In this document: positions 15,290 through 41,600 of the stretch, piece after piece
Position numbering within the stretch: the first letter of the stretch is position 1
Layout: each line of letters begins with the position of its first letter
Origin: Eledone cirrhosa
Lineage: Eukaryota
Direction: 5' to 3'
Length of the DNA: 64,000 nucleotides
Assembly: GCA_964016885.1 (NCBI GenBank)
Contig: OZ024763.1
Span: 3,968,001 to 4,032,000 of the forward strand
Translations under genes and position numbers: made by a program
The notes under the pieces: generated by a model
The model's input: the letters and a program-made list of their open reading frames with translations, nothing else
The model's database searches: none
Told to the model about the DNA's origin: nothing

Positions 15290-15885
15290 GGTAGAGAACA
15301 TCAAGAAGCTCGATAAGATTATGAAGGTGGACGGGAAGGCGCTAGGGGCTGGTTGAGGGCTTCGTGTATCTGGGAGCAAAGATTAGGAAAAAAGAAGACG
15401 ATGTGGTTGAGAGGAAGAGCAAAGCCTGGGCGGCGTGTTACAGTTTGAGGTCCGTGTGGAAGTCTGACCTTCGTAGGGACCTGAAGATCCGTCTCTTCGT
15501 TGCTGTAGTGGAGTCTGTGCTGCTGTACGGGTCTGAGACTTGGTCACTGACCAAGATACTCACTCAGATGGTGGATGGGTGCTACACGAGAATGCTGAGG
15601 ATGGCTCTGAACATTAATCAGTATACACTGAGGATGAAGAACTCAGAGCTGTACGGGAGCCTCGCAAAAGTTAGCTTGAAAGTAACACAGAGGATACTGA
15701 GGTTAGCTGGACATGCTCACTGACATCCAGAGTTGACACTGCACTCAGTGCTCCTGTGGGAGCCCCTCCACGGACTCACTGCAAGAGGGGGACCATGGAT
15801 GACATGTTGATGCCCTAAGGACAGACACTGGTCTCTGGAAGGCCCGGGACATAGCGGCGATGACGAAGGACAGAGACCGCCCTAG
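15290..15885 (+). mobile_element. RTE-clade LINE 3' fragment
   Basis: YLGA...KAWAACYSL..VWKS...KIRLFVAVVESVLLYGSETW...DGCYTRMLR...RLAGH. Confidence 0.85.
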
Positions 15886-23173: not shown

Positions 23174-23176
<3 letters not shown>

Positions 23177-23568
23177 AGGTGAGTAATATTGTAGAACAAT
23201 AAAACTATGCATATATCAGATAAGTAGCACTCAACAGTTGGTAGAACTGGAGTATATATATAAAGAAGAAATTAAAAGATGGTTTAAAAAGTTCCATATA
23301 TTTTATTATGCGCATTTCGAAAACAACATCATCCTGGGACAAACATTGTGTTCTCATCAGATAAAATAAGGTAACATGATATGAGGCCTAAAAACACTTG
23401 TGAACATATGTTGACTGGACACTTTCTTGTTTACAAGTGTTTTTAGGCCTCAAATCATGTTACCTTATTTTATCTGATGAGAACACAATGTTTGTCCCAG
23501 GATGATGTTGTTTTCGAAATGCGCATAATAAAATATATGGAACTTTTTAAACCATCTTTTAATTTCTT

Positions 23569-23572
<4 letters not shown>
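23174..23572. mobile_element. Hammerhead-bearing fold-back element (family also at 6063-6327)
   Basis: About 140-bp inverted arms (about 23262-23402 / 23432-23572), each with a hammerhead; (TA)n on both sides. Confidence 0.7.
23466..23535 (+). ncRNA. Type I hammerhead ribozyme (inverted twin on - strand at 23299-23368)
   Basis: TATTTTAT-CTGATGA-[long stem II]-GAAA-TGCGCA-TA-ATAAAATA; perfect 8-bp stem I, palindromic stem III. Confidence 0.8.
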
Positions 23573-24767: not shown

Positions 24768-25180
24768 ACGATATTAAACAAATGGAAACTATATTTATAT
24801 TTATAAAACCATATTTATTTCGTTATATATATTTCTGGGATATCATATTAAAAATATGTTATGCCTTCCTCAGACAAAATACAATACATAAGCTGTTTTA
24901 TAAATAATTAGTGACATACCTTGTGATAATGCAACTTCCTTTTAAAAAATTGATTTGGTAGTGCTTATGTATTGTATTTTGTCTGAGGAAGGCATAACAT
25001 ATTTTTAATATGATATCCCAGAAATATATATAACGAAATAAATATGGTTTTATAAATATAAATATAGTTTCCATTTGTTTAATATCGTAAACCTACTCCA
25101 GAAACTGTTGAGTGCTTTTATATCAGTTATAAAATATTTACTCGTTGTAACCCAACAATCTTAAATAAAACTTTTGCATA
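24768..25180. mobile_element. Hammerhead-bearing fold-back element
   Basis: About 125-bp perfect inverted arms (24768-24893 / 24963-25088) plus a tail; (TA)n flanks. Confidence 0.7.
24975..25040 (+). ncRNA. Type I hammerhead ribozyme (inverted twin on - strand at 24816-24881)
   Basis: TATTTTGT-CTGAGGA-[AGGCATAACATAT...ATATGATATCCCA]-GAAA-TATATA-TA-ACGAAATA. Confidence 0.7.
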
Positions 25181-25196
25181 TATATATATATATATT

Positions 25197-25525
25197 TAAA
25201 GGTTAAACAAGGTTCAATGAATAAATCAAAGAATGAGTTTTACAATAGATTGGAAGTACTCAACAGTATTGGTTTTCCGGAGTTATTAATATTAATTCAA
25301 AATATTAACAAAAATAGACATTCTTGTGATCAAGTATATTTTATTATACATATTTCAGAGGTACCATGACTGAATCTGAAACCATCTACTATGTCAGGGT
25401 ATGCATCATTTTATTTTATCTGATGAGGACGTACTGTTGAAGTTAGCTCAGTACCTCTGAAATATGTATAATAAAATATACTTGATCACACGAATGTCTA
25501 TTTTTGTTAATATTTTGAATTAATA
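25197..25525. mobile_element. Hammerhead-bearing fold-back element (family also at 4405-4600 and a tail fragment at 22855-22965)
   Basis: Inverted copy of the 3' end (about 25289-25364) facing a longer copy ending at 25525; TA flanks. Confidence 0.65.
25412..25478 (+). ncRNA. Type I hammerhead ribozyme
   Basis: TATTTTAT-CTGATGA-GGAC-GTACTG(TTGAAGTTAGCT)CAGTAC-CTCT-GAAA-TATGTA-TA-ATAAAATA. Confidence 0.72.
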
Positions 25526-28704: not shown

Positions 28705-28973
28705 GCTGATTTAATCGACTTTCCCCTCCCCTAAAATTGCTGGCCCTTGTACCTAAAGTAGAAACCATTGCTAGCCTCCTATGACCTTCCAAAAGAAGAA
28801 CAATATTTCTATATTTTATCTTTTTCTTTTTTTCTTTACAGATTTTCCACTGGCCATTATTTCTGGCAGACTAACAGACCATTGTCACAGACACTTATCC
28901 AGACTTTCTAATACTCCCTTCCTTCCGGTTGCGGCAACATTTCTTCAGCTCCCTTGAAAAGGTCAACTGACCA

Positions 28974-30305
28974 ATGTATTTTGTGAGGAAACTATTCAGA
29001 CGTAGTTTTTGTGGTAGCTTGGCGGTAGTTTTATTGGTCTGCTGTGTGGTCTACGCCTTGCTTGGTTCCCATCTCAGAATAATAACCGTTTCAAACTTTC
29101 AGTTCATCAAGAACACCCCAGCAGAAAACTTGCCAGTCCAAGCAGCTATTCGAAAGACGAGCTCCAAAAATGGCAGTGTTGTTTTACAACTGCTCGTTAC
29201 CCACAGAGTCCCCGCGGCAGCCCCTAACTTGGAAACGAACAACTCCGAATCACATTCCAAACCGATGATAAAACTCGACAAAGTAAAAGTAAACAATATT
29301 AGACTTATTGAAAAACTCATTTCTAGAATTACACAATCAAATCTGAAAGGTGATCGCTTAAATAAAAGCAAACCTTTAAAAGAAGAGGCCTTGAAAAAAA
29401 CAAAAGACAATTTACCAAAACGTTTTCATATACCTAATGTGCCCTCCATGTCTGTTGATGACACGGTTCCATATATACCAAAACCTGTGATAAATTATTT
29501 CTTAAAGTTACCACAACGGGAGTACAACGAAGAAGTCCTTATTTTAACTCCAATTCACAATGTTGCGGATCGTTTGAATCATTACGCCGATATGTTGAAG
29601 AATTTGACCTATCCCCACCATCTGATATCTGTAGCACTCGGCGAGGATTGCAGCACCGACGAAACACTTATAGTAGCCAAAGGCGTCGTTGAAGAACTGT
29701 CCGACATTTTCAAATCTACCAGACTGTTTCACTTCAACTTGACTGGTCAGATAACCGGACGCTGGAGCGTCGTACACGACCACGCGATGCAGTGGACGCG
29801 ACGCAGCCATCTTGCCAAGTCACGCAATCTCCTATTGCGGAGCAGTTTGAAAGACGAGACATGGGTCCTGTGGATTGATAGCGATGTGTCCCGCATCCCC
29901 GGTGATTTGGTTCAGCAGCTCATCTCAGCTGATAAGGATGTTGTCGTTCCTTCTTGTCTCTTTAACGATGGAGTCAACACAAGAGTTTATGACAAAAACA
30001 CCTGGCGGGAGACAAAACAATCGTGGGATATGCAAAAGCATTTACAGCCAAACCAATTGGTATTGGAGGGTTACGGCCCTTCGAATCGACTGTATTTGCC
30101 ACATCTGCGTGCAGAGGGTCGTCTGGTACCGATAGATGGCGTTGGTGGTTGCAGTCTTCTAGTCCGAGGAAATTGTCACAGAAAGGGTTTGGTGTTCCCA
30201 GAGGAGGTATACCAACACCATATAGAAACAGAAGGTTTATCAAAGATGGCAAAAACTATGCAATTTTCTGTGTATGGAATGCCTTTTGTTGAAGTTTTCC
30301 ATTAA
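28974..30305 (+). CDS. Anp1/Mnn9/Van1-family (GT62-like, GT-A fold) Golgi-type glycosyltransferase, single coding exon, 443 aa
   Basis: Non-repetitive 443-codon ORF. It has an N-terminal signal-anchor (SLAVVLLVCCVVYALLG), a K/N-rich stem, VLILTP..., LTYPHHLISVALGEDCSTD, RRSHLAKSRNLLL, the DxD motif WVLWIDSDV, YDKNTW, IDGVGGCSLLV and the family-typical C-terminal HHIETEGLSKMAK...VYGMP. A polypyrimidine acceptor (...ctttacag) ends at 28841 upstream of the ATG, and AATAAA motifs follow from about 30751. Confidence 0.88.
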   Translation: MYFVRKLFRRSFCGSLAVVLLVCCVVYALLGSHLRIITVSNFQFIKNTPAENLPVQAAIRKTSSKNGSVVLQLLVTHRVPAAAPNLETNNSESHSKPMIKLDKVKVNNIRLIEKLISRITQSNLKGDRLNKSKPLKEEALKKTKDNLPKRFHIPNVPSMSVDDTVPYIPKPVINYFLKLPQREYNEEVLILTPIHNVADRLNHYADMLKNLTYPHHLISVALGEDCSTDETLIVAKGVVEELSDIFKSTRLFHFNLTGQITGRWSVVHDHAMQWTRRSHLAKSRNLLLRSSLKDETWVLWIDSDVSRIPGDLVQQLISADKDVVVPSCLFNDGVNTRVYDKNTWRETKQSWDMQKHLQPNQLVLEGYGPSNRLYLPHLRAEGRLVPIDGVGGCSLLVRGNCHRKGLVFPEEVYQHHIETEGLSKMAKTMQFSVYGMPFVEVFH

Positions 30306-31245: not shown

Positions 31246-31278
<33 letters not shown>

Positions 31279-31283
<5 letters not shown>

Positions 31284-31832
31284 ATAAATGCTCTGAAATA
31301 GCGATATATATGTGAAGATAGACATAGAATATTCGAAAATATTCTGTATGTTTATAATAAACATTTTGAAGACCTAATCGCTATAGAATAGAATACGTCA
31401 CGTATTACAATTAGATTCTCGATAAAAGCAAGGTGACGTATTCTATTCTATTCTATAGCGATTAGGTCTTCAAAATGTTTATTATAAACATACAGAATAT
31501 TTTCGAATATTCTATGTCTATCTTCACATATATATCGCTATTTCAGAGCATTTATTCCAATTTCTAATTTCTGCCGGACCGGCAACCGCTCTTTCAAACC
31601 AGTTCCTGTACACAGCTAAGTATTCTATAAGTCTCTAGCTGTGCCATTCTCGATAAAAGCACTGGATATGTAATCCTGAAGATTTCTAATAAGAATGAAA
31701 CGCGTAGGTTACTTCCCTTGCTTTTATCGAGAATCTAATTGTAATACGTGACGTATTCTATTCTATAGCGATTAGGTCTTCAAAATGTTTATTATAAACA
31801 TACAGAATATTTTCGAATATTCTATGTCTATC

Positions 31833-31837
<5 letters not shown>
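31279..31837 (+). mobile_element. Retrozyme-like 310-nt hammerhead unit with direct repeat and 5' inverted copy
   Basis: Sequence at about 31440-31527 recurs exactly 310 nt later; hammerhead at 31670; 31279-31433 is an inverted copy; (TA)n flanks. Confidence 0.7.
31670..31712 (+). ncRNA. Type I minimal hammerhead ribozyme
   Basis: GTAATC-CTGAAGA-T-TTCT(AATA)AGAA-T-GAAA-CGCG-TA-GGTTAC with palindromic stem III (ACGCGT). The outer helix TTCTCGATAAAAGCA/TGCTTTTATCGAGAA extends stem I. Confidence 0.82.
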
Positions 31838-31865
<28 letters not shown>

Positions 31866-32709
31866 CATATATATAATATAAAACATATATATATATGAGA
31901 GTATTGAAGTTTGCTTGAAGCATTGGGGAATAATAATTTTTTTTTTTTTTTTGTCGCTTTGGAAGCCTCAACAATGCAGATGGATAAATCTCCGGGTAAC
32001 AGAATCCGGTGGTGAAGAGAGAGATGTAAGAGGAAATGTAGAATGAGACGTATAGTGTGTTGAGGAACGTAGGAAATAGCGTAAAAATAAAAATAATAAC
32101 ACGAGATAGAGTTACCTTGGGAGAGATTTAATTGTCCCTATATTTCGGATTCGCATCCATTAACTAGGGGGGGGGGTTTATCTGTCGGAGAGGAACGGTA
32201 CGTGGCCTCTGTTGTCCGCTGTTTGTGTCTGTTACAGCACATTGTACCCAGTCACCCCTGTAAGGTGGTACTACTACCACCACAATGTACCCAGTCACCT
32301 CTGTGTGGTACTACTACTACTACTACCACCTCATTGTACCGAGGTGGTATAGCCAGAATCACGATAAAATACTCCCAGTACACTCTGTAAAGTAGTTGGC
32401 GCTATGAAGGGGATCCAGCAGTAGAAACCATGCTAAATATGAGGTTGCAATATATTTTTTTAAATCAATATATGAAAAAAATAGATGAATATAATGAATA
32501 AATAAGTAATTTTTATTTAATTATTTATTCATTATTTTTTTATACATTTATTTTTTTTGTGTATCGATTTTATTAATGTTGATCTATTGATTTATTTGTT
32601 TTAATAATTAGCTTATATTTATACATACATTAATTTATACACTTACATATACGACGAATTTATGCATATTTTTTATATTGAGGGAACCGAGACTGCATGA
32701 ATGTATATA

Positions 32710-32896
32710 CAGGTAAAATTCCGTTGTAACGAATACCATTATAATGAATTTTTCAGTATAACGAAATTTGTTTAATCCCTGATGTAATAACAAACAAACG
32801 CTCGATTTTTTTCGATCGATCTTGTTATAAAGAATTTTTCGTTACAACGAATTTTTTTTATAGCCCGTGAATTTCGTTTTAACGGAATTGCACTGT
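32710..32896. mobile_element. Tc1/pogo-type MITE; second copy inverted at about 57123-57298
   Basis: TA-flanked CAGG.AAAATTCCGTT...AACGGAATTGCACTG termini with internal CGTTAYAACGAA repeats. Confidence 0.7.
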
Positions 32897-33822
32897 ATAA
32901 ATTTAGGTTTTAAGCAAATATGGCCTTCAAGACCTTCGTAAGTCACTCATTTTCTGTGGTTGCTCCAGCTGGGAACTCCAACAGAAATGTCCCAAAGACG
33001 TGTGTAAATAATATTTACTTCAGTAGAAATTGAAACAATGAGAAACTCTGGTTGAAGTAGAGGGTAAATAATTGTTTCTACTGTTGGCACAAGGCCAGCA
33101 AATTACCCCAGTACATTACTGGTACTTTATTTTATCGACCCCGGAAGGATGAAAGGCAAAGTTAACCTCGGCGGGATTTGAACTCAGACCGTAAAGAGTC
33201 GTAATTCTATGCCGCAAAGCATGGTGTCCGACGCTCTACCGGTACTGTCAATCCGTTCGTCTCTATTGCAAATAATAAAAGTTAGTTTTTACTATTATAT
33301 TCGCCTCACATTGGAAGCGAAATTTGCGTTTTTTTCTATGGTTTTTTGGTATGTTTTGAATGAACATGGCCTTTAAAACCATTGGAAATTATGCGTTTTT
33401 ATTTAACTGTGGGCCAGGTAGAGTGTACCTTCAGAGTTCTCGAGTTAATTATAAACAAAACAAAACAAATAAGTTTCCGGTTGTTTTGAAGACTATATTC
33501 GTTCAAGGGAGAAACATAAATTTTATCTCGATACCGAGACGTGTGTCAGTAACAATTTACGATAATAAATAATGATTTAAGAAATACTAAACAACATTAA
33601 CAACCTTTTTACGTCTTCGAAGTTTGGTGCTGCTCTCACAGTGCTGGTCCTGAGACAACAACATCTAATTGAAAGGGGGAAATAACTCTCCAATAGTCAT
33701 AAGAGGCATTTAATGCACAGATAGAGAGTGAGAGAGTGACAGTAGGAGAATTAAATGGAAGTCTATCGTAAATGCTCATACATATACATAGACATACATA
33801 CATAAGATGGTATTTGTAATAC

Positions 33823-38669: not shown

Positions 38670-41600
38670 GTGAGTAGATCATACTTTTCTTTAAAACATT
38701 ATTTGTCATATTTCTAATGAGAGAAACTGTCTAAGTCTTTAACCCTTTCTTAGACAGTGTCTCTCATTAGAAATATGACAAAGAAAGGGTTAAAGACTTA
38801 GACAGTGTCTCTCATTAGAAATATGACAAAGTCTTTAACCCTTTCTTTGTCATATTTCTAATGAGAGACACTAAGTCTTTAACCCTTTCTTTCTCTTATT
38901 TCTAACGAGAGACACTAAGTCTTTAACCCTTTCTTTCTCTTATTTCTAACGAGAGACACTAAGTCTTTAACCCTTTCTTTCTCTTATTTCTAACGAGAGA
39001 CACTAAGTCTTTAACCCCTTCTTTCTCTTATTTCTAACGAGAGACACTAAGTCTTTAACCCTTTCTTTCTCTTATTTCTAACGAGAGACACTAAGTCTTT
39101 AACCCTTTCTTTCTCTTATTTCTAACGAGAGACACTAAGTCTTTAACCCTTTCTTTCTCTTATTTCTAACGAGAGACACTAAGTCTTTAACCCCTTCTTT
39201 CTCTTATTTCTAACGAGAGACACTAAGTCTTTAACCCTTTCTTTCTCTTATTTCTAACGAGAGACACTAAGTCTTTAACCCTTTCTTTCTCTTATTTCTA
39301 ACGAGAGACACTACTTGGAGTGACTCTCTGATCTCCGAGTTATGCACTTTATCATGTAACGTTACTCCAAACACCTTTTGGGGGTATCTCATTTTAGCCG
39401 CTTGTATTCGTGATCGTATTTTTTCGCTCCTTCCCCAAGATTCATGACCATAAGTAAGGGTTGGCACGAACACCAAATTAAAGACAGGGAGTTTCACTTT
39501 TACGCCTACCTCCCTTCTTCTGATTACTGAATTATGAAGCTGGCGCATTACTGTACCAGCTCCAGCAATTCTTGCACTTAATTCAAAATCCTTCCTTCTA
39601 TCATTTGTGAACATGGGCCTGAGATACTTGAACTTCTCCCTGCGTCAATGGAACTCCATTCACATGTAAAGTGCACTGCGCAGTCTTCCTTGAGAGGACG
39701 AGTGTCTCAGTTTTCACAGCACTGATTTTCATTCCAGCCATGCAACGCTCAGCATCAAACCTATCAAGTGCAAGTTGAAAATCACCTTCTGTTGAGTTAA
39801 GTAACACCATGTCGTCTGCAAATACCAGCCGACTGTTTTACATCCACCAGTCATGATACCACTTCCAACCTGATTGCGCATGTCACAGTTGGCTTGATTT
39901 CTCCCTGGCTCATATGATTTTCATGGATATATCATCAAATATGGATGTAATGTTTTTGAGAAAAAGCAAGTGGAGCATGCTGTTGTGGAGCATTCACTTC
40001 GTAAGCGGGAATCGAGTGCAACGTCTGTAAAAATCCAGCAGGAATTGAGGTGCAGTGTATGTGACCAATTTCTTCTGACACTAGCTGGTTTTGTTAACAT
40101 ACATACATATGTACATTTATACAGACAGACGGACAGACAGTGGGTACCATGGAACAAATGGAAAGCTGTATGTACCATTTAGACAAACCATATGGATAAA
40201 TTTCTCTTTCTTTGATTTTGTTTATTTGTTTATTTATATATATATATATACAGGATGTTCCAAAAAAATGTATACACATATTTATTAAAATGCTGTTAAA
40301 GTGTGCATATATATTTTTGGGACACCGTGTATATGTGTATCTTTCTTTTCTTTCAGTTATGGAAGACGAACCTTTGGTGTGTTCAAAATGATGGGAGTGC
40401 CTGGTCCTGAACCAGTCACATTCATAGGCAACATGATTGACATGTCACAGGTAAAATATATCAAATATAGCTGCTGCTGTTGGTGGGGTGGTGGTGGTGG
40501 GGAGTCTGCTGACGATCATGTCACCATTTTATGTCCATTTTTCCATGCTTACATGGGTTGAATTGGTCTTTTCCAGCACAGCATCCCTCTACGTCTTCAA
40601 CTCAACTGTGAGCCTCAGAGATTTGAGATCAGCTCTCACAACATCTGCCCAGGTCTCCCTTGGCCTCCCTCTACTGTAGCTCCCTTCCGGTGTTTAGAGG
40701 ACTGGATTTGCAATCATGAGGTTGTGATTTCGATTCCCGGACCAGGCGATGTGTTATGTCCTTGAGCAAAACACTTTATTTCATGTTGCTTCTTTTATCT
40801 GGATTTGTTAGTATTAGGAATTAGAAAGACCAATGGAAACATTGTTTCCTCGGTCTGATTTGACAAGCTCCACCCCACTCGATAAGTGAATGAGGTCTGG
40901 GATCTTGTCGATCAACTGTCGATACCACATGAGGAGTAATTTGAGGGTGTATGCCACATGAATGGTAATTTTGTGGCTGTATACCACATGGGTAATTTTG
41001 CCATGAAGGTGTCAAATGTGTAAAAGGTTTGGAGCGTTACACACCAGATAAAGGGTATTTTTAAGGGTATACTTTTGTGTAAAAGGTTTGGGGATCTCTA
41101 TACTAGAATGTTATCCATCATATTATGAGTAATTTTAGGGGTCAAATATGTAAAAAGTTAAGGATTTTCTGTTTTCAAGTGTTATCCATGATTGTGTGTA
41201 ATTTTCGGGGTATACTTCAGCTATGAAGGGGTCTAGTTTTCCATGAAGAGGCTGATAGTGTAAAAAGTTTGGGGCTTCCTTTACTAGTATTGACAGGTGG
41301 GTCAGGCATGCCCCTGTAACATTCTAACATACTATGGTACTCAAAGGATGAAGCTCCTACATGCATGTAACCTTGACACCACATGTCATGTGTTGGTACA
41401 TGTCTTACATCTGACATGTAACCTTGACACCACATGTCATGTGTTGGTACATGTCTTACATCTGACACATTCCTGTGTGGGAGCATTCATGAGTTATTTG
41501 CTGTAAGTTTACATGCACACACACATACACACTTTCAAATACACACACACACATACACACTCTCACACATTCACACTCTCTCAAACACACACTTTCAAAT

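What the first reader, a model, noticed from the sequence alone, without database searches (positions are those of the whole stretch)
31279..31837. 310-nt retrozyme-like unit consistent with a circular or multimeric RNA template
Seen: a non-coding segment runs from about 31434 through a unique region and an intact hammerhead (31670-31712, with a 15-bp outer helix 31647-31661/31719-31733). It then repeats its own start exactly 310 nt later (ATTAGGTCTT at 31461 and 31771). An inverted copy of the same sequence precedes it, and the copies are essentially identical, so the insertion is young. Established: metazoan non-LTR retrozymes are tandem units of a few hundred nt with type I hammerheads that yield circular RNAs. 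Inference: a cephalopod retrozyme copied by read-around of a 310-nt circle, about 1 kb downstream of the glycosyltransferase stop codon.
Basis: partly seen in the sequence, partly recalled or inferred. Interest (0 to 1): 0.75.

Follow-up and report, generated by a model that had tools for sequence, protein, structure and literature searches.

The report
Octopod retrozyme with Penelope insertion footprint
This is one small, young copy of an abundant 310-base non-coding repeat in an octopus-family genome that carries a predicted self-cutting RNA motif, and its back-to-back layout in a TA repeat matches Penelope-type jumping genes, whose enzyme likely copied the RNA, possibly a circle, from both ends of a DNA cut.

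Summary
Observation confirmed. Between two (TA)n runs lie an inverted arm (31279-31433) and a direct arm (31434-31836). The direct arm reads once round a 310-nt ORF-less unit through a type I hammerhead motif. The arms are identical where they overlap (0 of 155, 0 of 83). The host is an octopod (neighbouring protein 75% identical to Octopus vulgaris). In one public run 587 contigs cover the whole unit deeply. In two others the family assembles into one closed 310-nt loop, so it is not mainly the end of a long element. Those two runs also carry an unrelated high-copy repeat of this window, so they are no evidence for free circles or transfer. Five more hammerhead loci in the window share it. 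A circular template is inferred, not shown; an uncleaved multimer fits about as well. With one weak-looking ribozyme, this locus cannot release a circle itself. Retrozymes and their PLE link are published. This scan has noted 310-nt two-armed arrays repeatedly on other pieces of this genome.

The parts
31246..31279 (.). left (TA)n run, target of the inverted arm
   Evidence: period 2, 17.5 copies
31279..31433 (-). inverted, 5'-truncated arm, unit offsets +10 to about +165; lacks the ribozyme core
   Evidence: 155 of 155 identical to the unit read round
31279..31312 (-). one-sided extension ('tail', 26-35 nt depending on how much TA-like overlap is counted) present only at the left end
   Evidence: loose (TA)n ends at 31535 (12 contigs) and 31566 (1 contig) in run X1
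31434..31836 (+). direct arm, 1.3 units: starts at +43, passes the ribozyme, ends at +129 to +139
31440..31444 (+). one extra ATTCT next to the head-to-head junction, absent from the other two copies of this stretch
31646..31734 (+). 16-pair outer helix (31646-31661 with 31719-31734) extending stem I
31670..31712 (+). type I hammerhead motif with short palindromic stem III and U.U at 10.1-11.1; predicted cut 31706/31707
31804..31823 (+). predicted 8-pair hairpin with UUCG loop at +98 to +117, just before the first 3' end; candidate binding site for the partner protein (inference)
   Evidence: fold of the unit as a circle
31836..31896 (.). right (TA)n run, target of the direct arm
28971..30305 (+). 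neighbour, not part of the element: Anp1/Mnn9-like glycosyltransferase reading frame, stop 974 nt upstream

Best explanation
This is a single young insertion of an abundant, protein-less 310-nt hammerhead-motif unit (retrozyme type), laid head-to-head in a TA repeat and likely written there by the endonuclease and reverse transcriptase of a Penelope-like element. Steps: (1) Inferred: tandem copies elsewhere are transcribed, and paired hammerheads cut some transcripts into monomers that a host ligase closes into circles, as shown for coral, mussel and axolotl retrozymes. (2) Inferred from the anatomy and from in vitro work on the anole PLE: the PLE protein binds just downstream of the ribozyme and nicks both strands of a (TA)n run. 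One end primes at about +130 and the other at about +165. (3) Shown by the sequence: the right-hand copy ran 1.3 units through an exact, uncut or re-joined ribozyme site; the left-hand copy stopped at +10; the two were joined head-to-head with 1 nt of overlap and a 5-nt slip. (4) Inferred: the template was a read-through RNA. I commit to the ligated circle at about 0.5, against about 0.4 for an uncleaved multimer and 0.1 for an exact template jump. The product has one ribozyme and is predicted to be a dead end for circle production.
For: Layout equals the published PLE structure: direct repeats, an adjacent inverted 5'-truncated copy and a 30-40-bp tail at one end (PMC3846280 passages; PMC8557442 passages, which also name microsatellite bias). 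The anole PLE protein cuts and extends both strands of AT-rich DNA and starts at two internal RNA sites that define the tail (PMC11167929). In run X1 the best-supported loose end is (TA)n at +139 (12 contigs), with another at +170 (1 contig). The left arm does not occur contiguously in the direct arm, so it needed its own pass over a template. All three copies of +126 read C where 87% of X1 depth reads A, so both arms come from one minority lineage. Of 8 hammerhead-motif loci in the window, 6 are clearly two-armed in TA runs, and in 6 of those 6 the arms end at different offsets. The family closes at 310 nt: single 340-nt contigs (310 + 30) in X4 and X9; in X1 45 of 587 contigs fit only partly and the share running on into unlike sequence is 0.
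Against: No partner PLE was identified (no genome held). Self-cleavage is untested and looks weak: U.U at 10.1-11.1 in about 83% of X1 depth, where G-C is described as highly conserved. In the anole PLE unprocessed RNA was the main substrate and ribozyme mutants still inserted, which argues against needing a circle. Only 83 nt of the unit are copied twice in the direct arm, too little to tell circle from array. No target-site duplication can be read inside (TA)n. 26 further loose ends in X1 were not shown. The circle folds with 57% of bases paired, and its minus strand folds as well (z -4.2 and -4.6), so folding does not single out the circle.
Confidence: 0.75

Rival explanations
1. Same PLE-driven insertion, but the template was a linear uncleaved multimer transcribed from a tandem array; circles, if made, are a by-product. 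A linear RNA of about 430 nt (+10 of one unit to +130 of the next) would suffice for both arms.
For: Unprocessed RNA was the dominant substrate for the anole PLE in vitro. Short palindromic stem III impedes cleavage as a monomer; here ACGCGU is predicted to pair with a second copy (-9.5 kcal/mol). Li et al. saw cleavage in 1 of 9 Xenopus dimers. The left arm stops 9 nt short of the cut site, as it might near the 5' end of a once-cut linear RNA.
Against: Linear copying cannot lengthen arrays. Earlier scan notes report arrays of 9-18 near-identical 310-nt units in this genome (not checked by me). Circles were the abundant form in mussel and about half in coral.
Confidence: 0.4
2. The 310-nt period is only the end repeat (pLTR) of a long ORF-bearing PLE, shortened at this locus by deletion or a template jump.
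For: The anatomy is that of a PLE with its ORF missing. PLE pLTRs carry type I hammerheads. A 2-contig loose end at 31550 runs into 59 nt of other sequence.
Against: Depth in X1 is continuous over the unit (2.3e5-6.2e5 between 31490 and 31769), the share running on into unlike sequence is 0, and X4 and X9 assemble a closed 310-nt loop. A rare autonomous parent with this pLTR is not excluded.
Confidence: 0.08
3. The inverted arm arose by self-priming or DNA fold-back on the first cDNA or on an antisense template (model of Arkhipova et al. 2013), not by priming from the second DNA end.
For: Proposed in print for head-to-head PLE inserts with palindromic junctions. An imperfect palindrome TACGT-G-ACGTA spans the start of the direct arm in the unit, and the 6.5-kb locus has an almost palindromic junction.
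Against: The left arm (+10 to +165) is not contiguous in the direct arm, the direct arm cannot be copied from the shorter left arm, the junction has a 48-nt spacer, and both outer ends fall in TA at different offsets in 6 of 6 two-armed loci.
Confidence: 0.1
4. A viroid-like circular RNA replicon or a horizontally spreading element found in many organisms.
For: Runs under 18 organism labels (A to R) hold part of the unit; X4 and X9 show a single closed contig.
Against: X4, X9 and X5 also hold an unrelated high-copy repeat of this window (33065-33254); repeat-to-unit depth ratio 40 in X1, 44 in X4, 118 in X9, as trace octopod DNA would give. No hammerhead on the minus strand of the element.
Confidence: 0.03

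Closest known systems
Metazoan non-LTR retrozymes (Cervera and de la Pena 2020, PMC7229834; Li, Clavereau and Pollet 2026, 10.64898/2026.07.22.740005)
   Same: Non-coding unit of a few hundred nt (310; 34% GC), type I hammerhead, tandem period, high copy number; PLEs already proposed as the mobiliser and origin.
   Different: This locus has 1.3 units and one ribozyme, below the two-ribozyme criterion of Li et al. Head-to-head arms, a tail and TA targeting are not described in what I read of these papers ('inverted' occurs 0 times in PMC7229834), and 'octopus' and 'cephalopod' occur 0 times there. Circular RNA is untested here.
Insertions of endonuclease-bearing Penelope-like elements (Arkhipova et al. 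2013, PMC3846280; Craig et al. 2021, PMC8557442; Frangieh et al. 2024, PMC11167929)
   Same: Partial tandem plus adjacent inverted truncated copy, one-sided tail of about 30 nt, AT-rich or microsatellite target, hammerhead a short way upstream of two 3' ends.
   Different: No ORF (longest ATG frame on the circle 30 aa); the whole repeat is 310 nt instead of several kb. Non-autonomous PLEs with pLTRs are known (Chlamys MRC1), but that clade is described as lacking canonical hammerheads.
PLE-type and metazoan type I hammerheads acting as dimers (Cervera and de la Pena 2014, PMC4209133)
   Same: 6-pair stem I, 4-pair stem II, 1-2-pair stem III with a palindromic loop.
   Different: U.U (83% of depth) or A-U (17%) instead of G-C at 10.1-11.1; a 16-pair outer helix.

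Membership tests
Metazoan non-LTR retrozyme | Non-coding unit of about 150-450 nt, GC under 50% | tested here: met
   310 nt, GC 0.34; longest circular ATG frame 30 aa
Metazoan non-LTR retrozyme | Type I hammerhead motif in the unit | tested here: met
   Core and three stems present, beyond chance; 10.1-11.1 non-canonical, Rfam below cut-off
Metazoan non-LTR retrozyme | [quoted passage not shown] | tested here: not met
   One ribozyme in 31279-31837; the locus is a sub-dimer product
Metazoan non-LTR retrozyme | Family occurs with a tandem head-to-tail period | tested here: met
   Closed 340-nt contigs in X4 and X9 and continuous depth in X1; array lengths not measurable from contigs
Metazoan non-LTR retrozyme | No LTR, PBS or PPT; target duplication longer than 4 bp when present | tested here: inconclusive
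   No target duplication can be read inside (TA)n; PBS and PPT were not searched for
Metazoan non-LTR retrozyme | Self-cleavage and linear plus circular RNA in vivo | not testable with these tools
   Needs bench work or RNA reads
Non-autonomous derivative of an endonuclease-bearing PLE | Partial tandem with adjacent inverted 5'-truncated copy | tested here: met
   against PMC3846280 and PMC8557442 passages
Non-autonomous derivative of an endonuclease-bearing PLE | Two 3' ends about 30-40 nt apart (one-sided tail) | tested here: met
   +129 to +139 and +163 to +165 here; +139 (12 contigs) and +170 (1 contig) in X1
Non-autonomous derivative of an endonuclease-bearing PLE | Sequence shared with the pLTR of an autonomous PLE in the same genome | not testable with these tools
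   No genome held; no such element recognised in the window
Viroid-like circular RNA replicon | Ribozymes in both polarities and existence without a genomic DNA copy | tested here: not met
   No minus-strand hammerhead (other ribozyme classes checked only through Rfam); genomic copies abundant

The most novel reading that the evidence does not exclude
A Penelope-type reverse transcriptase copies a covalently closed 310-nt ribozyme RNA circle round and round from both ends of one cut in a TA repeat, with one fixed start site per end (+130 and +165). The insertions would then be the genomic record of circle-to-DNA retrotransposition and would explain the inverted copy and one-sided tail of PLEs in general as two-ended priming on one RNA.
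Probability: 0.4. Interest if true: 0.7.

Novelty: new variant of a known kind. Interest (0 to 1): 0.42.

Why it matters
That retrozymes move through circular RNA with PLE enzymes has been proposed since 2020 and supported by phylogeny in 2026, but the papers I read give no insertion-level evidence. A 310-nt ORF-less unit that carries the full PLE footprint is such evidence and a minimal substrate: the two start sites, the target and the template forms to compare are all defined, so the origin of PLE inverted and tailed inserts becomes testable in vitro. This particular copy is small and cannot decide circle versus multimer.

Tried and rejected
No genome held, so no census of copies, ends or partner. 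Sequencing-run search: no RNA holder listed. Raw reads X23 (same organism label as X9, another sample): 0 laid of 12.8 million, which the tool marks as no test. The closed contigs were first read as possible free circles or transfer, then rejected on the control repeat. Exact 25-nt pattern scans of metagenome and viral contigs: 0 matches each. Scan look-ups by sequence, nearby place and relatives returned nothing, so identity with the earlier 310-nt family is unverified. Exact look-up of the neighbouring protein: absent. Rfam weak matches mir-297, lsy-6 and RUF21 rejected as TA-repeat or inverted-repeat artefacts. My energy comparison of an active-like fold (-24.6) with the minimum (-33.4 kcal/mol) left out one stem III pair that the program cannot close, so it is only indicative. 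No read-round was found in the other hammerhead families (4 comparisons at the 4.5, 23, 24.9 and 25.4 kb loci); those copies are shorter than a unit. A role in regulating the glycosyltransferase has no support: 10 poly(A)-signal hexamers lie between its stop and the element.

Full report
Anatomy. Offsets count +1 = 31707, the base after the predicted cut. The element lies between (TA)n runs at 31246-31279 and 31836-31896. The direct arm starts at 31434 (+43), carries one extra ATTCT near its start, passes the hammerhead and ends at +129 to +139. The inverted arm 31279-31433 covers +10 to about +165. The arms point outwards, head-to-head, with 1 nt of overlap at the junction (read). Identity is complete where it can be compared: 155 of 155 and 83 of 83, so the insertion is young. 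No other copy of the unit is in the window. The longest ATG frame on the unit read as a circle is 30 aa. The neighbouring reading frame matches Pfam Anp1; its best hits are Octopus vulgaris (75%) and Argonauta (65%), so the host is an octopod, probably not O. vulgaris itself.

Ribozyme. 31670-31712 has the core, a 6-pair stem I, a 4-pair stem II and the palindrome ACGCGU as stem III, inside a 16-pair helix. My pattern found 9 hits in the window against 0 in 30 shuffled windows and 0 in 2000 shuffles of the element; it was written knowing this motif. Rfam gives only a sub-threshold HH9 match. Pair 10.1-11.1 is U.U. This is not decay of this copy: about 83% of X1 depth has it and 17% has A-U, and the related motif at 6499/6505 has it too. 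Two stem I positions differ from the X1 majority and both keep a pair (G.U to A-U, U-A to U.G); these are one-sided changes and weak evidence. Such short-stem-III motifs are described as needing a second copy to cut well (PMC4209133 passages). Cleavage is untested. With one ribozyme, this locus cannot release a monomer.

Family. In run X1 (best holder, possibly the window's own sample), 587 contigs cover the unit at summed depth 2.3e5-6.2e5 between 31490 and 31769, against 5-12 for the longest contigs listed. The tool warns that this is no copy number; I read it only as very many copies. 45 of 587 contigs fit partly, and the share running on into unlike sequence is 0. The best loose end is (TA)n at +139 (12 contigs), another is at +170 (1 contig); 26 were not shown. 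The window copy differs from the majority at 6 of 310 sites. In X4 and X9 the unit assembles as one contig of 340 nt = 310 + 30, which I read as a closed loop of 31-letter words; X4's contig visibly wraps. A control on 31900-33300 showed that X4, X9 and X5 also hold an unrelated repeat (33065-33254, 13 matches elsewhere in the window) at a depth ratio like that of X1 (40, 44 and 118 for X1, X4, X9). So these runs most likely hold trace octopod DNA. The loop shows that the majority path of the family is periodic at 310 nt; it does not show a free circle. X4 and X9 each carry one letter that is a minority in X1, so their DNA may come from other individuals or species.

Mechanism. The layout is the typical PLE insert: two direct repeats, an adjacent inverted truncated copy and a 31-bp tail at one end (PMC3846280 passages; PMC8557442 passages). 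The anole PLE protein cuts and extends both strands of AT-rich DNA and starts at two internal RNA sites downstream of the hammerhead (PMC11167929, parts 1-2 of 4). Here the left arm is not contained contiguously in the direct arm and the direct arm is longer than the left, so neither is a simple fold-back copy of the other. All three copies of +126 share the minority letter C, pointing to one template lineage. The window holds 8 loci with a hammerhead motif. Six are clearly two-armed in TA runs, with ends at +129/+163 (this one), +44/+132 (23.2-23.6 kb), +55/+145 (24.8-25.2 kb), +52/+149 (25.2-25.5 kb), +26/+100 (6.4-6.6 kb), and +43 with a tail-only arm assigned by likeness to the 23-kb tail (6.1-6.3 kb). 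The 4.5-kb locus has only a 21-nt hint of a second arm, and the 11.3-kb motif was not examined for arms. In 6 of 6 the two arms end at different offsets; a free 50:50 choice at each end would give that 1 time in 64 (my arithmetic; two loci share a family). I infer priming from both DNA ends at two sites on a read-through RNA. The direct arm crosses the cut site exactly, so a cleaved linear monomer cannot be its template without a precise jump. Circle (about 0.5) and uncleaved multimer (about 0.4) cannot be separated with 83 nt of overlap. Against the circle: unprocessed RNA was the main substrate for the anole protein. For it: circles dominate in mussel, and arrays need a way to grow.

Comparison. 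It works like a PLE insertion and is filed as a product of a non-LTR retrozyme family: unit size, GC, motif and tandem period are met, the two-ribozyme criterion is not met at this locus, and RNA is untested. PMC7229834 (abstract, sections 13, 14, 17 and passages) proposes circles copied by PLE enzymes. The 2026 preprint (parts 1-3 of 5; supplements not seen, and they may list more species) links vertebrate retrozymes to PLE pLTRs. Six literature searches listed no paper on cephalopod retrozymes or on head-to-head, tailed retrozyme insertions; the library lacks most subscription papers, and one search listed 15 of 4,965.

Earlier scan notes. Look-ups by place show that agents noted 310-nt two-armed hammerhead arrays of up to 18 units and over a thousand insertions on other pieces of this genome, with much the same reading. 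My PLE and tail reading was written before I saw them; the two-armed wording and the count of unequal ends were prompted by them. I could not check their counts or confirm sequence identity.

Verdict. Real, young and well formed. A known kind of element with an insertion footprint that ties it to PLE machinery more directly than the papers I read do. Interest 0.42; 0.7 if the circular template is shown.

Noticed in passing
window 23175-23571, 24769-25177, 25196-25522, 6372-6558, 6065-6326, 4406-4607: Six more hammerhead-motif inserts of at least four other sequence families in (TA)n; five are clearly head-to-head with one-sided tails of about 74-97 nt, longer than the 30-40 nt in print. Their tails share a short TTGAGT(G/A)C-like motif that this unit lacks.
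   Followed up: partly
window 31706/31752 in run X1: One contig (depth 2.65, 21 letters on the short side) runs exactly to the predicted cut site, has 5 other letters and resumes at +46. It may record a jump onto the 3' end of a self-cleaved RNA, or be an error.
   Followed up: no
window 11283-11330: Another type I hammerhead-like motif with an 8-pair stem I, not directly in a TA run.
   Followed up: no
   Followed up: partly
window 33065-33254: Very high-copy short repeat, 13 matches at 80-93% elsewhere in the window; used as control.
   Followed up: partly
window 28971-30305: Anp1/Mnn9-like glycosyltransferase in one uninterrupted 444-codon frame; a read-through transcript would carry a 120-155-pair RNA hairpin and a sense ribozyme motif about 1 kb past the stop (inference; no RNA data).
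   Followed up: partly
window 15346-15723 and 39267-39644: Short frames that look like remnants of LINE-type reverse transcriptase ends (by eye; Pfam gave only DUF6451, below cut-off, for the first).
   Followed up: no
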